Virus record (IMG/VR): IMGVR_UViG_2695420478_000017
Coordinates: 1 to 7,390 of that record
DNA from: a virus
Taxonomy: Duplodnaviria > Heunggongvirae > Uroviricota > Caudoviricetes
Length of the DNA: 7,390 nucleotides
Direction: 5' to 3' (one strand)
The notes under the pieces: model-generated
The model's input: only the letters and a program-made list of their open reading frames with translations
What the model was told of the DNA's origin: nothing
Databases searched by the model: none
Program-made: the position numbers and the translations under genes
Part shown: positions 571 through 7,390 of the stretch, piece after piece
How the letters are laid out: each line of letters starts with the position of its first letter
How positions within the stretch are numbered: position 1 is the stretch's first letter

Positions 571-585
571 TCGGCCTTTATTTTT
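560..585 (+). terminator. Putative intrinsic terminator (stem aggccg/cggcct, 6-nt loop, then TTATTTTT)
   Basis: Hairpin at 560-577 followed by a T-rich tract at 578-585; it overlaps the stop codon of the upstream ORF. Confidence 0.4.
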
Positions 586-614
586 GGCATAAACAACAGA
601 ATAAACACTGCACT

Positions 615-642
615 GTGTATTCATTCCAACGAGTGAATACAC
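615..642 (+). other. Strong 12-bp inverted repeat / RNA hairpin, 4-nt loop, no U-tract
   Basis: gtgtattcattc (615-626) pairs with gagtgaatacac (631-642) with one G-U wobble; loop is caac. Not followed by a T run. Confidence 0.4.
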
Positions 643-704
643 GGAGCAATGTCGCTCGTAACTAAACAGGAGCCGACTTGTTCTGATTATTGGAAATCTT
701 CTTT

Positions 705-728
705 GCCCTCCAATGTGAGGGCTTTTTT
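705..728 (+). terminator. Intrinsic terminator (gccctc / caatgt / gagggc + TTTTTT)
   Basis: 6-bp GC-rich stem at 705-710 and 717-722, followed directly by six T at 723-728. Confidence 0.55.
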
Positions 729-794
729 ATATGCATACCAATAACGCTTCACTAGAGGCGTTTTCGTTATGTGTAAATAAATAAGGAGCACACC

Positions 795-959
795 ATGCAA
801 TATGCCATTGCAGGGTGGCCTGTTGCTGGCTGCCCTTCCGAATCTTTACTTGAACGAATCACCCGTAAATTACGTGACGGATGGAAACGCCTTATCGACA
901 TACTTAATCAGCCAGGAGTTCCCAAAAATGGATCAAACACTTATGGCTATCCAGACTAA
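795..959 (+). CDS. cIII: CIII, protease (FtsH) inhibitor that stabilises CII
   Basis: Translation [54 protein letters not shown] (54 aa) matches lambda CIII as recalled; SD TAAGGAG at 782-788. It is not in the ORF track as a separate ORF because it overlaps the frame-1 ORF 802-1071. Confidence 0.9.
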   Translation: MQYAIAGWPVAGCPSESLLERITRKLRDGWKRLIDILNQPGVPKNGSNTYGYPD

Positions 960-1071
960 ATTCACTATCGCCACTTTTATTGGTGATGAAAAGATGTTTC
1001 GTGAAGCCGTCGACGCTTATAAAAAATGGATATTAATACTGAAACTGAGATCAAGCAAAAGCATTCACTAA
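928..1071 (+). CDS. kil: Kil, host cell-division (FtsZ) inhibitor
   Basis: Internal Met of track ORF 802-1071 gives [47 protein letters not shown] (47 aa), matching lambda Kil; overlaps the cIII 3' end by 32 nt as in lambda. Confidence 0.85.
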
Positions 1072-1091
1072 CCCCTTTCCTGTTTTCCTAA
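1026..1091 (+). pseudogene. gam: Frame-disrupted remnant of the long-form Gam N-terminal extension
   Basis: ATG at 1026 encodes [18 protein letters not shown] then LFS-stop. The continuation [29 protein letters not shown] is readable in the GamS frame from about 1079. The two ATGs are 119 nt apart (not a multiple of 3). Confidence 0.6.
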
Positions 1092-1144
1092 TCAGCCCGG
1101 CATTTCGCGGGCGATATTTTCACAGCTATTTCAGGAGTTCAGCC

Positions 1145-1441
1145 ATGAACGCTTATTACATTCAGGATCGTCTTGAGGCTCAGAGCTGGGCGCGTCACTA
1201 CCAGCAGATCGCCCGTGAAGAGAAAGAGGCAGAACTGGCAGACGACATGGAAAAAGGCCTGCCCCAGCACCTGTTTGAATCGCTATGCATCGATCATTTG
1301 CAACGCCACGGGGCCAGCAAAAAAGCCATTATCCGTGCGTTTGATGACGATGTTGAGTTTCAGGAGCGCATGGCAGAACACATCCGGTACATGGTTGAAA
1401 CCATTGCTCACCATCAGGTTGATATTGATTCAGAGGTATAA
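1145..1441 (+). CDS. gam: Gam, short form (GamS, 98 aa), RecBCD inhibitor
   Basis: Translation [21 protein letters not shown]...[10 protein letters not shown] matches lambda Gam; strong SD AGGAG at 1133-1137, 7 nt before the ATG. Confidence 0.9.
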
Positions 1442-1446
1442 AACGG

Positions 1447-2217
1447 ATGAGTACAGCACTCGCAACGCTGGCAGGGAAGCTGGCTGAACGTGTCGGCATG
1501 GATTCTGTCGACCCACAGGAACTGATCACCACTCTTCGCCAGACGGCATTTAAAGGCGATGCCAGCGATGCGCAGTTCATCGCATTGTTGATCGTCGCCA
1601 ACCAGTACGGCCTTAATCCGTGGACGAAAGAAATTTACGCCTTCCCTGATAAGCAGAACGGCATCGTTCCGGTGGTGGGCGTTGATGGCTGGTCCCGCAT
1701 CATCAATGAAAACCAGCATTTTGATGGCATGGACTTTGAGCAGGACAATGAATCCTGTACATGCCGGATTTACCGCAAGGACCGTAATCATCCGATCTGC
1801 GTTACCGAATGGATGGATGAATGCCGCCGCGAACCATTCAAAACCCGCGAAGGCAGAGAAATCACGGGGCCGTGGCAGTCGCATCCTAAACGGATGTTAC
1901 GGCATAAAGCTATGATTCAGTGTGCCCGTCTGGCCTTCGGATTTGCTGGTATCTATGACAAGGATGAAGCCGAGCGCATTGTCGAAAATACTGCATACAC
2001 TGCAGAACGCCAGCCGGAACGCGACATCACTCCGGTTAACGATGAAACCATGCAGGAGATTAACACTCTGCTAATCGCCCTGGATAAAACATGGGATGAC
2101 GACTTATTGCCGCTCTGTTCCCAGATATTTCGCCGCGACATTCGCGCATCGTCAGAACTGACACAGGCCGAAGCAGTGAAAGCTCTTGGATTCCTGAAAC
2201 AGAAAGCCACTGAGTAG
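1447..2217 (+). CDS. bet: Bet (Red-beta) single-strand annealing protein, 256 aa; C-terminus 5 aa shorter than lambda Bet
   Basis: Translation matches lambda Bet from [26 protein letters not shown] to ...LGFLKQKA; it ends at TAG 2215-2217, while the lambda-position stop TGA at 2230-2232 is still in frame downstream. Confidence 0.93.
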
Positions 2218-2228
2218 AAGGTGGCAGC

Positions 2229-2909
2229 ATGACACCGGACATTATCCTGCAGCGTACCGGGATCGACGTGAGAGCTGTCGAACAGGGGGATGATGCATGG
2301 CACAAATTACGGCTCGGCGTCATCACCGCTTCAGAAGTTCACAACGTGATAGCAAAGCCCCGCTCAGGAAAGAAGTGGCCTGACATGAAAATGTCCTACT
2401 TCCACACCCTGCTGGCTGAGGTTTGCACCGGTGTGGCTCCGGAAGTTAATGCTAAGGCGCTGGCCTGGGGAAAACAGTACGAGAACGACGCCAGAACCCT
2501 CTTTGAGTTCACTTCCGGCGTTAATGTTACTGAATCCCCGATCATCTATCGCGACGAAAGTATGCGCACCGCCTGCTCTCCCGATGGTTTATGCAGTGAC
2601 GGCAACGGCCTTGAACTGAAATGCCCGTTTACCTCCCGGGATTTCATGAAATTCCGGCTCGGTGGTTTCGAGGCCATAAAATCGGCTTACCTGGCCCAGG
2701 TGCAGTACAGCATGTGGGTGACACGAAAAGATGCCTGGTACTTTGCCAACTATGACCCGCGTATGAAGCGTGAAGGCCTGCATTATGTCGTGGTTGAGCG
2801 GGATGAAAAGTACATGGCGGGTTTTGACGAGATGGTGCCGGAGTTCATCGAAAAAATGGACGAGGCACTGGCTGAAATTGGTTTTGTATTTGGGGAGCAA
2901 TGGCGATGA
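2229..2909 (+). CDS. exo: Exo (Red-alpha) 5'-3' dsDNA exonuclease, 226 aa
   Basis: Translation [50 protein letters not shown]...[10 protein letters not shown] matches lambda Exo with a few substitutions; SD AGGTGG upstream. Confidence 0.93.
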
Positions 2910-6339: not shown

Positions 6340-7390
6340 GCGCCGGGATTTACCCCCTAACCTTTATATAAGAAACAATGGATATTACTGCTACAGGGAC
6401 CCAAGGACGGGTAAAGAGTTTGGTTTAGGCCGAGACAGGAGGATAGCAATCACTGAAGCAATACAGGCCAATATTGAGTTACTCTCAGACAGCGGACGCA
6501 AATCACTAATAGACAGAATTAAAGGCGGTGACGCAATCACTCTTCATGTGTGGCTTGACCGATATGAAACAATCCTCACCGAAAGGGGGATCAGGCCGAA
6601 AACTCTACTCGACTACGCCAGCAAAATCAGGGCAATCCGAAGAAAATTGCCGGACAAACCGCTCACTGACATATCAACGAAAGAAGTGGCAGCAATGCTA
6701 AACACCTACGTAGCAGAAGGTAAAGCAGCTTCCGCAAAATTAATCAGGTCAACCCTTGTTGACGTTTTTCGTGAAGCAATAGCCGAGGGGCATGTGGCAA
6801 CGAATCCGGTAACAGCAACCCGTACAGCAAAGTCAGAAGTAAGGCGCTCAAGGCTGACAGCTAATGAGTATGTCGAGATTTACCATGCAGCCGAACCTCT
6901 CCCTATCTGGCTAAGGCTGGCGATGGATTTGGCCGTCGTTACAGGGCAGAGAGTCGGCGATTTGTGCAGAATGAAATGGTCAGACATAAACGACAACCAT
7001 CTTCACATTGAACAGAGTAAAACAGGGGCTAAACTCGCCATTCCGCTAACGCTAACGATTGACGCGCTCAATATCTCATTGGCTGATACACTACAGAAAT
7101 GCAGGGAGGCCAGCAGCAGTGAAACTATAATCGCATCAAAGCATTACGATCCTCTTTCCCCGAAAACAGTATCAAAGTATTTTACAAAGGCGAGAAATGC
7201 ATCTGGACTCTCATTTGATGGAAACCCGCCAACATTCCATGAACTGCGTAGCCTGTCAGCGAGGCTATACCGGAACCAGATTGGCGATAAATTTGCTCAA
7301 CGTCTTCTCGGGCATAAATCAGATTCAATGGCGGCGCGGTATAGAGACAGCCGTGGACGGGAATGGGACAAAATTGAAATCGACAAATGA
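6317..7390 (+). CDS. int: Tyrosine-family site-specific integrase Int (357 aa)
   Basis: N-terminus MGRRRSHERRDLPPNLYIRNNGYYCYRDPRTGKEFGLGRDRRIAITEAIQANIEL matches lambda Int; C-terminal catalytic signature present (VVTGQRVGDL, HELRSLSARLY, LLGHKSDSMAARYRD). Stop codon is the last 3 nt of the window. Confidence 0.95.
   Translation: MGRRRSHERRDLPPNLYIRNNGYYCYRDPRTGKEFGLGRDRRIAITEAIQANIELLSDSGRKSLIDRIKGGDAITLHVWLDRYETILTERGIRPKTLLDYASKIRAIRRKLPDKPLTDISTKEVAAMLNTYVAEGKAASAKLIRSTLVDVFREAIAEGHVATNPVTATRTAKSEVRRSRLTANEYVEIYHAAEPLPIWLRLAMDLAVVTGQRVGDLCRMKWSDINDNHLHIEQSKTGAKLAIPLTLTIDALNISLADTLQKCREASSSETIIASKHYDPLSPKTVSKYFTKARNASGLSFDGNPPTFHELRSLSARLYRNQIGDKFAQRLLGHKSDSMAARYRDSRGREWDKIEIDK

What the first reader, a model, noticed from the sequence alone, without database searches (positions are those of the whole stretch)
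1026..1147. A -1 frameshift removes the long-form Gam N-terminus; only GamS is intact
The ATG at 1026 encodes [18 protein letters not shown] and then stops after LFS, while the rest of the lambda long-Gam N-terminus ([24 protein letters not shown]) is readable in the GamS frame upstream of the ATG at 1145. The two ATGs are 119 nt apart where lambda needs 120, implying a single-base loss in the C/T run around 1074-1080. The element would make only the 98-aa GamS from its own strong SD, unless this is a homopolymer sequencing error.
Basis: partly seen in the sequence, partly recalled or inferred. Interest (0 to 1): 0.4.

Follow-up and report, generated by a model that had tools for sequence, protein, structure and literature searches.

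The report
GamS-only allele of lambdoid gam
This prophage lacks one C in the short leader before its RecBCD-inhibitor gene gam, so lambda's optional 138-aa "long Gam" frame is closed, but the conserved 98-aa Gam is intact; most natural relatives are GamS-only too, so this is ordinary.

Summary
ATG 1026 and ATG 1145 are 119 nt apart, against 120 in lambda. The window has CCCC at 1072-1075 where lambda has CCCCC. The ORF from 1026 stops after 21 aa, and the 98-aa GamS ORF (1145-1441) with its AGGAG Shine-Dalgarno is intact.

It is a real allele rather than a one-off read error. The identical 71-nt stretch occurs in 24 complete E. coli genomes, including the O55:H7 lineage, and RefSeq annotates a 98-aa Gam there.

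It is not a notable loss. The GamL frame is unconserved across the family:
- A +1 T-insertion allele that also breaks it is the commonest form: 2,821 places in E. coli genomes against 960 for the lambda-type.
- The C-run also occurs as C6 and as T-interrupted forms.
- Some phages carry a different upstream gene with no GamL ATG at all.
- Gam homologues at 74-83% identity have no such extension.
- The Pfam Gam model and all solved structures cover exactly GamS.

Positions 1072-1144 therefore behave as a non-coding kil-gam leader (hairpin plus SD). Lambda's GamL ORF is a minority configuration. Known biology, low interest.

The parts
931..1071 (+). kil (46 aa by Pfam scan plus stop; host cell-division inhibitor). 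Its stop TAA 1069-1071 sits immediately 5' of the C-run, so kil is unaffected by the indel.
   Evidence: Pfam PF06301 Lambda_Kil, E=2e-20. RefSeq annotates the same gene in genomes carrying the C4 allele.
1026..1091 (+). Remnant of the lambda GamL start, now a 21-aa ORF ([21 protein letters not shown]). It begins inside kil in another frame. There is no Shine-Dalgarno before it (upstream sequence is GCTTATAAAAA).
   Evidence: In lambda the same ATG opens the 138-aa gam CDS.
1072..1075 (+). C4 homopolymer, the site of the 1-nt deletion relative to lambda's C5. Natural relatives also carry C6, TC4 and T- or A-interrupted versions.
   Evidence: Alignment; haplotype lists.
1073..1079 (+). C_CCT_TTC in the frame of ATG 1026, which has the form of a canonical -1 slippery heptamer. 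A -1 slip here would recreate the exact lambda GamL sequence. It is listed only as a speculative feature.
   Evidence: Read from the sequence. Heptamers without a stimulator reach only 2-10 times a background of about 0.055% in E. coli (PMC4066793).
1091..1122 (+). Conserved terminator-like hairpin in the kil-gam leader. The core stem is GCCCG/CGGGC at 1095-1112 with an 8-nt loop, and AUC/GAU extends it. The tail GATATTTTCA follows.
   Evidence: Terminator scan; RNA fold -19.8 kcal/mol, z=-1.9. Across 17 leader haplotypes including Citrobacter, 95.6% of cells are paired, and one pair varies as C-G, U.G and U-A. Covariation is not statistically supported.
1133..1137 (+). Shine-Dalgarno AGGAG for GamS, 7 nt upstream of the ATG. 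The block TTCAGGAGTTCAGCCATGAACGC is kept even in the Salmonella and Citrobacter gam loci (74-76% protein identity).
1145..1441 (+). gam (GamS form, 98 aa), the RecBCD inhibitor. It is the only intact Gam product of this element.
   Evidence: Pfam PF06064 Gam, E=2e-64, profile positions 1-98 of 98. PDB 5MBV and 2UUZ/2UV1, E=2e-60, full length. 98% identical to the 98-aa cluster P0001 with 1,844 member sequences.
1447..2217 (+). bet (RecT-family annealase), the downstream Red-operon neighbour. Here it is 256 aa because of a TAG at 2215-2217.
   Evidence: Pfam PF03837; alignment with lambda and CB9615.
2229..2909 (+). exo (lambda exonuclease, YqaJ family), 226 aa and intact.
   Evidence: Pfam PF09588.

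Best explanation
The window is the early-left (pL) recombination module of a lambdoid prophage: cIII, kil, gam, bet, exo and on to xis and int.

The interval 1072-1144 is best read as the non-coding kil-gam leader. It contains a length-variable C homopolymer, a conserved terminator-like hairpin, and the AGGAG Shine-Dalgarno of gam. Gam is made as the 98-aa GamS form by direct initiation at ATG 1145 and inhibits RecBCD. In the solved complex GamS acts as a DNA mimic, and its N-terminal helix plugs the RecB ssDNA channel.

In phage lambda an SD-less ATG inside kil happens to be in frame with gam across this leader. That gives the 138-aa GamL ORF. Here one C fewer (C4 rather than C5) closes that frame after 21 codons.

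This is a neutral or nearly neutral natural polymorphism, not a defect. The element should have normal Gam function.

Shown: the indel, its recurrence in many genomes, the non-conservation of the GamL frame, and the conservation of the GamS ORF and its SD.

Inferred: that ATG 1026 is little used, and that loss of GamL has no phenotype.
For: - One-base difference from lambda in the C-run.
- The identical 71-nt allele is in 24 complete E. coli genomes from different hosts and countries, with 27 records in the >=99% band. PGAP annotates a plain 98-aa 'host-nuclease inhibitor Gam family protein' there, with three different Gam accessions and different upstream genes.
- In the IMG/VR sample of gam loci with the lambda-type kil junction, 61 are intact at 138 aa (plus 11 cut by a contig end), 41 carry a +1 T insertion (50-aa uORF) and 7 carry C4 (8 with the window). 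GamS was intact in 112 of 114 complete loci.
- E. coli complete genomes: the +1 (T4) leader is in 2,821 places in 2,553 genomes, against 960 places in 889 genomes for the lambda-type T3 leader. In the phage collection the split is 90 versus 90.
- The same 75-nt leader follows a different upstream gene with no GamL ATG. The C-run there is TC4, C4 or C6.
- All listed full-length Gam clusters at 93% identity or lower are 97-100 aa. Among listed clusters, 138-aa forms occur only at 97% identity or higher.
- In the recE-linked E. coli, Salmonella and Citrobacter loci the in-frame upstream region closes after 2-30 codons. The SD+ATG block is conserved in the Salmonella and Citrobacter loci.
- The Pfam Gam model has 98 positions, matching lambda residues 41-138. 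The PDB chains are 98-99 aa.
- Among 67 haplotypes, two frame-breaking indels occur in the 74-nt GamL-only stretch and none in the 297-nt GamS ORF.
- GamS alone inhibits RecBCD, and its N-terminal helix inserts into RecB (PMC5218532).
Against: - The literature treats GamL as a real isoform (PMC5218532, citing Sakaki 1973). [quoted passage not shown]
- pBAD-GamL was slightly more effective than GamS in some K. pneumoniae strains. That construct still contains the internal GamS start.
- From my own memory, unverified here: early purifications reported a subunit of about 16.5 kDa, which is closer to GamL.
- The SNP pattern does not discriminate. Nonsynonymous to synonymous counts are 12:6 in GamL-only codons and 31:27 in GamS.
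- About a quarter of E. coli loci and half of the phage records keep the lambda-type T3 leader. I did not show that GamL is untranslated in those.
Confidence: 0.85

Rival explanations
1. Sequencing or assembly artefact: the window's true sequence is C5, and the missing C is a homopolymer miscall.
For: The site is a homopolymer. No reads are available for this window. In the same 2.4 kb the window also carries a nonsense codon near the end of bet.
Against: The identical C4 allele occurs in 24 complete genomes assembled by different groups, including a whole clonal lineage (O55:H7 CB9615, RM12579, DEC5A/B/D, TB182A, USDA5905). It also occurs in 7 IMG/VR contigs and in phage PhiR5_1. A C4 run is short for a systematic homopolymer error. 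The window's other indels relative to CB9615 lie in non-coding DNA or restore the lambda cIII reading.
Confidence: 0.05
2. Genuine loss of function: GamL is a functionally distinct isoform. This prophage, and the other GamS-only elements, have lost it as part of prophage decay or adaptive tuning.
For: GamL is described as an isoform and is active when over-expressed. The window's bet also carries a late nonsense codon, which could hint at decay.
Against: GamS-only loci are the majority, and they include inducible, plaque-forming Stx phages and PhiR5_1. Divergent Gam homologues never have the extension. exo, int, kil, cIII and GamS in the window are intact. The same GamS protein, WP_000995439.1, occurs behind C4, behind T4, and behind alternative upstream genes.
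Confidence: 0.07
3. Recoding or phase variation: GamL is still made at a low level by -1 ribosomal slippage on C_CCU_UUC (1073-1079), or the C- and T-runs act as a heritable switch between GamL+GamS and GamS-only states.
For: In the ATG 1026 frame the C4 allele forms a perfect X_XXY_YYZ heptamer, and a -1 slip would give exactly the lambda GamL sequence. Both frame-breaking indels lie in homopolymer runs, and the C-run takes at least three lengths in nature.
Against: ATG 1026 has no SD. No stimulatory structure lies at the usual 5-9 nt spacing, since the hairpin starts 15 nt downstream. Heptamers without a stimulator give at most about 0.5% slippage in E. coli (PMC4066793). Runs of 4-6 nt are too short for efficient slipped-strand phase variation. 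The alleles are stably inherited in clonal lineages. The +1 allele has no matching +1 recoding site.
Confidence: 0.03

Closest known systems
Phage lambda gam (J02459 32816-33232; GamL 138 aa / GamS 98 aa), the Red-gamma RecBCD inhibitor
   Same: Same gene and same operon position (kil-gam-bet-exo). The GamS region is about 97% identical in protein (L62I, S101A and T103I relative to lambda). The SD and ATG are identical, and so is the leader apart from one C.
   Different: C4 instead of C5 in the leader closes the upstream in-frame ORF, so no 138-aa product is encoded.
GamS-only gam loci of Stx-converting and other lambdoid phages (Stx2 phage 86 AB255436, AU6Stx1 KU977420, BP-4795) and E. coli prophages annotated by PGAP as 98-aa 'host-nuclease inhibitor Gam family protein'
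   Same: Only the 98-aa Gam is intact, and the upstream ATG opens a short dead-end ORF. The leader, hairpin and SD are the same.
   Different: Those loci break the frame with a +1 T insertion next to the SD (121-nt spacing, 50-aa uORF overlapping the gam start). The window breaks it with a -1 deletion in the C-run (119 nt, 21-aa uORF ending 54 nt before the gam ATG). The C4 allele is much the rarer of the two: 24-27 E. coli records against more than 2,500.
Prophage of E. coli O55:H7 CB9615 (NC_013941, gam G2583_RS01475)
   Same: It carries the same C4 allele. It is 99.0% identical to window 573-2310. Gam is annotated at 98 aa.
   Different: It differs by a few SNPs and indels (A-to-G in the spacer before the ATG, a cIII C-terminal variant). 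Its bet is full length at 261 aa.

Membership tests
Gam host-nuclease inhibitor family (Pfam PF06064; lambda Red-gamma) | Full-length match to the 98-position Gam profile above the curated cut-off | tested here: met
   Window 1145-1441 scores 214.3 bits (cut-off 25), E=2.1e-64, covering profile positions 1-98 of 98.
Gam host-nuclease inhibitor family (Pfam PF06064; lambda Red-gamma) | Sequence identity with the structurally solved GamS dimer that binds RecBCD | tested here: met
   phmmer against PDB 5MBV_A and 2UUZ_A gives E=2e-60, aligning residues 1-98. Three substitutions relative to lambda.
Gam host-nuclease inhibitor family (Pfam PF06064; lambda Red-gamma) | Genomic context: immediately upstream of bet (RecT-type annealase) and exo in the pL operon | tested here: met
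   bet at 1447-2217 (PF03837) and exo at 2229-2909 (PF09588), with kil (PF06301) upstream.
Gam host-nuclease inhibitor family (Pfam PF06064; lambda Red-gamma) | Inhibition of RecBCD nuclease and helicase activity | not testable with these tools
   Inferred from near-identity to lambda GamS (PMC5218532).
Lambda-type two-isoform gam (GamL + GamS) | An upstream ATG in frame with GamS, 120 nt apart, giving an uninterrupted 138-aa ORF | tested here: not met
   Spacing is 119 nt. The ORF from 1026 ends at 1091 after 21 aa. No start codon lies in the GamS frame upstream.
Programmed -1 ribosomal frameshift site | X_XXY_YYZ slippery heptamer in the zero frame | tested here: met
   C_CCT_TTC at 1073-1079 in the frame of ATG 1026.
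Programmed -1 ribosomal frameshift site | A stimulatory element (upstream SD-like sequence, or a downstream hairpin or pseudoknot 5-9 nt away) and conservation of the two-frame arrangement among relatives | tested here: not met
   The nearest stable hairpin begins 15 nt downstream. Most relatives have C5 or a T-interrupted run, where no shift is needed or the heptamer is absent. The zero-frame ATG has no SD.
Intrinsic (rho-independent) terminator | GC-rich stem-loop followed directly by a U-tract | tested here: inconclusive
   There is a 5-bp all-GC stem (8 bp with the extension) followed by GATATTTTCA. The scan finds 1 site against 0.5 expected in shuffles. The U-tract is interrupted, and it is absent in the Citrobacter homologues that keep the stem. 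There is no statistical covariation. From memory, it may belong to lambda's tL2 cluster; I did not verify this. It is not tL3, which lies downstream of exo according to descriptions of pKD46 (my recollection, prompted by the hits).

The most novel reading that the evidence does not exclude
GamL is a functionally distinct isoform only in the lambda-type minority. Under this reading the C-run (C4, C5, C6) and T-run (T3, T4) in the kil-gam leader act as a heritable contingency switch that turns it on or off. In the C4 state the C_CCU_UUC heptamer (1073-1079) would allow leaky -1 ribosomal slippage that regenerates the exact GamL protein.
Probability: 0.04. Interest if true: 0.45.

Novelty: already known. 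Interest (0 to 1): 0.12.

Why it matters
It matters little for this element, whose Gam function should be normal.

The useful by-product is a population-level point. The long Gam isoform quoted in the lambda literature is encoded by only a minority of natural gam loci: at most about 25% in complete E. coli genomes and about half of the phage records. It is absent from all the divergent homologues examined.

This argues that GamS is the selected product. It also suggests that annotating lambda gam as 138 aa, or using "full-length GamL" constructs, has no evolutionary backing.

For annotation pipelines, the kil-gam interval in these phages should be treated as a leader and not flagged as a frameshifted pseudogene.

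Tried and rejected
- dN/dS-style SNP counts to test protein-level constraint on the GamL-only codons gave 12 nonsynonymous to 6 synonymous, against 31:27 in GamS. The test is underpowered because the loci are about 98% identical. I rely on indels and divergent homologues instead.
- I tried to identify the leader hairpin as lambda tL3. I rejected this because tL3 lies downstream of exo according to descriptions of pKD46 (my recollection, prompted by the hits). An assignment to the tL2 cluster rests on memory only.
- The covariation test of the hairpin shows the stem is kept but with no statistical support.
- Literature on which Gam form is made in vivo was not available. Court 2007, Sakaki 1973, Liu 2013 (ribosome profiling) and the Casjens & Hendrix review are not held. 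Text searches gave only that there are two isoforms, "presumably" from two starts.
- No record in the E. coli or phage collections covers more than about 82% of the whole window, so the source prophage is a mosaic not present there as such.
- I considered -1 PRF at C_CCU_UUC and rejected it as a significant mechanism.
- I skipped structure prediction of the 40-aa extension. All GamL sequences are 97% identical or more, so the alignment would have no depth.

Full report
**What is there**

The window is the early-left recombination and integration arm of a lambdoid prophage. Reading on the + strand it holds:
- cIII (795-959)
- kil (931-1071; PF06301)
- gam (1145-1441; PF06064)
- bet (1447-2217; RecT family)
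- exo (2229-2909; YqaJ family)
- several ea-region ORFs, then xis and int, which ends at 7390

No record in the phage or complete E. coli genome collections covers more than about 82% of it. It is a mosaic of familiar modules, at 91.5% identity to lambda and 97-98% to various prophages over the shared parts.

**Checking the observation**

The sequence reads as follows:
- ATG at 1026-1028 is followed by codons for [21 protein letters not shown] and a TAA at 1089-1091.
- The next relevant ATG is at 1145-1147, 119 nt downstream.
- That ATG is preceded by AGGAG at 1133-1137 with a 7-nt spacer.
- It opens an intact 98-aa ORF.

Alignment with lambda J02459 shows that the ATG-to-ATG interval is identical to lambda except for one missing C. 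The window has AAC CCC TTT, with C4 at 1072-1075, and lambda has C5.

The kil stop (TAA, 1069-1071) lies immediately before the run, so kil is untouched.

**Is it an artefact?**

Read data are not available for this window. The allele itself is real.
- The identical 71-nt stretch (1040-1110) occurs at 100% identity and full length in 24 complete E. coli genomes, and 27 records fall in the >=99% band.
- These include the whole O55:H7 lineage (CB9615, RM12579, DEC5A/B/D, TB182A, USDA5905), some O157:H7 strains, and unrelated isolates from pig, poultry, cattle, waterfowl and seawater.
- In three of these genomes that I opened, PGAP annotates a plain 98-aa "host-nuclease inhibitor Gam family protein". 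The three carry different Gam accessions and different upstream genes.
- Seven IMG/VR contigs carry the allele on two leader haplotypes.
- One plaque-forming phage, PhiR5_1, carries it.
- CB9615 is 99.0% identical to window 573-2310.

**What the GamL-specific stretch really is**

Four lines of evidence show that the 74 nt between the kil stop and the GamS ATG are not under selection as coding sequence.

First, frame-breaking indels are common there and absent from GamS.
- In 120 IMG/VR loci with the lambda-type kil junction, 61 have the intact 138-aa ORF (plus 11 cut by contig ends), 41 have a +1 T insertion next to the SD, and 7 have C4.
- The +1 allele changes CTATTTC to CCATTTTC. This gives 121-nt spacing and a 50-aa dead-end ORF that overlaps the gam start.
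- GamS was intact in 112 of 114 complete loci.
- Among 67 full haplotypes there were two indels in the 74-nt leader and none in the 297-nt GamS ORF.
- In complete E. coli genomes a 35-mer specific for the +1 (T4) leader hits 2,821 places in 2,553 genomes. The lambda-type (T3) 35-mer hits 960 places in 889 genomes.
- In the phage collection the split is 90 records against 90, and many of the T3 records are lambda laboratory derivatives.
- Inducible Stx phages such as Stx2 phage 86, AU6Stx1 and BP-4795 carry the +1 form. The depositors of phage 86 annotated two separate "gam" CDSs.

Second, the leader is a module of its own.
- In many prophages, and in PhiR5_1, a different cell-division-inhibitor gene replaces lambda kil.
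- The joint lies exactly at that gene's stop codon plus the C-run, and the same 75-nt leader follows.
- No GamL ATG exists in that context, and the run there is TC4, C4 or C6.
- The identical GamS protein WP_000995439.1 is found behind the C4 leader, behind the T4 leader with lambda kil, and behind the T4 leader with the alternative gene.

Third, more distant homologues lack the extension.
- All listed full-length Gam clusters at 93% identity or lower are 97-100 aa.
- Among listed clusters, 138-aa forms occur only at 97% identity or higher.
- I examined three divergent kinds of locus: recE-linked E. coli (83% identity), Salmonella (74%) and Citrobacter (76%).
- In all three, the frame upstream of the Gam ATG closes after 2-30 codons.
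- The block TTCAGGAGTTCAGCCATGAACGC, which is the SD plus the start, is conserved in the Salmonella and Citrobacter loci.

Fourth, the family definition is GamS.
- The Pfam Gam model has 98 positions and matches lambda residues 41-138.
- All solved structures (2UUZ, 2UV1, 5MBV) are the 98-99-aa form.
- In the RecBCD complex the N-terminal helix of GamS is buried in the RecB ssDNA channel (PMC5218532).

A SNP-based test of constraint was uninformative, with 12 nonsynonymous to 6 synonymous changes in GamL-only codons and 31:27 in GamS.

The leader does contain something conserved.
- There is a hairpin with core GCCCG/CGGGC at 1095-1112, extended by AUC/GAU at 1091-1115.
- It is followed by GATATTTTCA and is picked up by the terminator scan.
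- It appears in the MFE fold at -19.8 kcal/mol, z=-1.9.
- The stem persists in Citrobacter with a different loop.
- The commonest "nonsynonymous GamL" polymorphism (P25L, C to T) merely converts a C-G pair to U.G. One haplotype completes the change to U-A.
- The divergence is too small for statistical covariation, so I treat the hairpin as a plausible RNA element of unproven function.
- One candidate, from memory only, is a member of lambda's tL2 terminator cluster. It is not tL3, which lies downstream of exo according to descriptions of pKD46 (my recollection; only listed papers that mention tL3).

**How it most likely works**

Gam is translated as GamS from its own strong SD. [quoted passage not shown] That mechanism is established for lambda GamS and inferred here from 97% identity.

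The upstream ATG at 1026 has no SD (its context is GCTTATAAAAAATG) and lies inside kil in another frame. In this allele it can only make a 21-aa peptide, ending 54 nt before the gam ATG.

Three very different upstream configurations coexist freely in nature:
- read-through into GamS (lambda)
- a stop 54 nt upstream of the gam ATG (C4)
- a stop 32 nt inside gam (T4)

From this I infer that initiation at the upstream ATG is too weak to matter. The one-base deletion is therefore a neutral polymorphism of a leader homopolymer.

**Rivals**

- A sequencing error in this particular window cannot be excluded without reads. It is unnecessary, given the allele's wide occurrence (about 5%).
- A true functional loss of a distinct GamL isoform (about 7%) has some literature support, since GamL is described as an isoform that is active when over-expressed. 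The comparative data above contradict it, and "GamL" expression constructs still contain the internal GamS start.
- Recoding is a curiosity. In the C4 allele the zero frame reads C_CCU_UUC, a canonical -1 heptamer, and a slip there would regenerate exactly the lambda GamL sequence.
- Against recoding, the ATG has no SD and no stimulator lies at the right distance. Unstimulated heptamers give at most about 0.5% slippage in E. coli (PMC4066793). I give it about 3%.

**Comparison with the known, and novelty**

This is a member of the Gam (PF06064) family in its usual kil-gam-bet-exo context. It fails only the test for the lambda-specific two-isoform arrangement.

The GamS-only state is already what RefSeq annotates in thousands of prophages, and the C4 allele itself is already in public genomes. 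Nothing here is new in kind.

The by-product is a useful but minor correction to how lambda gam is usually described. The GamL ORF is a minority, lambda-clade accident, and most natural gam loci cannot encode it. Interest is low.

Noticed in passing
window 2215-2217: bet ends at a TAG where lambda and CB9615 have CAG (Q257). Bet is 256 aa instead of 261, and the usual bet-stop/exo-start ATGA overlap is lost (exo ATG at 2229). I did not survey how common this nonsense allele is.
   Followed up: partly
window 1091-1122: A terminator-like hairpin (GCCCG-8 nt-CGGGC, extended by AUC/GAU, then GATATTTTCA) sits inside the supposed GamL coding stretch. It is conserved in the E. coli lambda-type leaders and in Citrobacter, which has a different loop and no U-tract. 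One stem pair varies as C-G, U.G and U-A. It may be one of lambda's tL2 sites (from memory only).
   Followed up: partly
L135, L137, L138 (E. coli prophages) and L140 (phage PhiR5_1), about 75 nt upstream of gam: There is a mosaic joint exactly at the upstream gene's stop codon plus the C-run. A different 'cell division inhibitor' gene replaces lambda kil, yet the same leader follows, with the run as TC4, C4 or C6. The homopolymer may mark a recombination boundary between modules.
   Followed up: partly
proteins P0002, P0009, P0010: 171-aa Kil-Gam fusion ORFs appear in a few Logan read-assemblies. Further indels or substitutions around the kil stop and C-run put kil, the leader and GamS in one frame. 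They could be real rare alleles or assembly errors.
   Followed up: no
L136 (E. coli E2865), kil stop: The kil stop TAA is changed to TAC (CACTACCCCCC), which extends the annotated Kil CDS to 165 nt.
   Followed up: no
phage collection record MW057783.1: 'Campylobacter phage CJLB-4' (48,361 bp) matches the window with the same coverage, identity and score as phage lambda itself. It is probably lambda control DNA deposited under a Campylobacter name.
   Followed up: no
window 753-790 and 915-930: Relative to CB9615 the window has small indels upstream of the cIII SD. It also has a compensating +1/-1 pair in the last codons of cIII. The window's CIII ends ...[18 protein letters not shown] (54 aa), which from memory is the lambda reading; this is natural variation.
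   Followed up: partly
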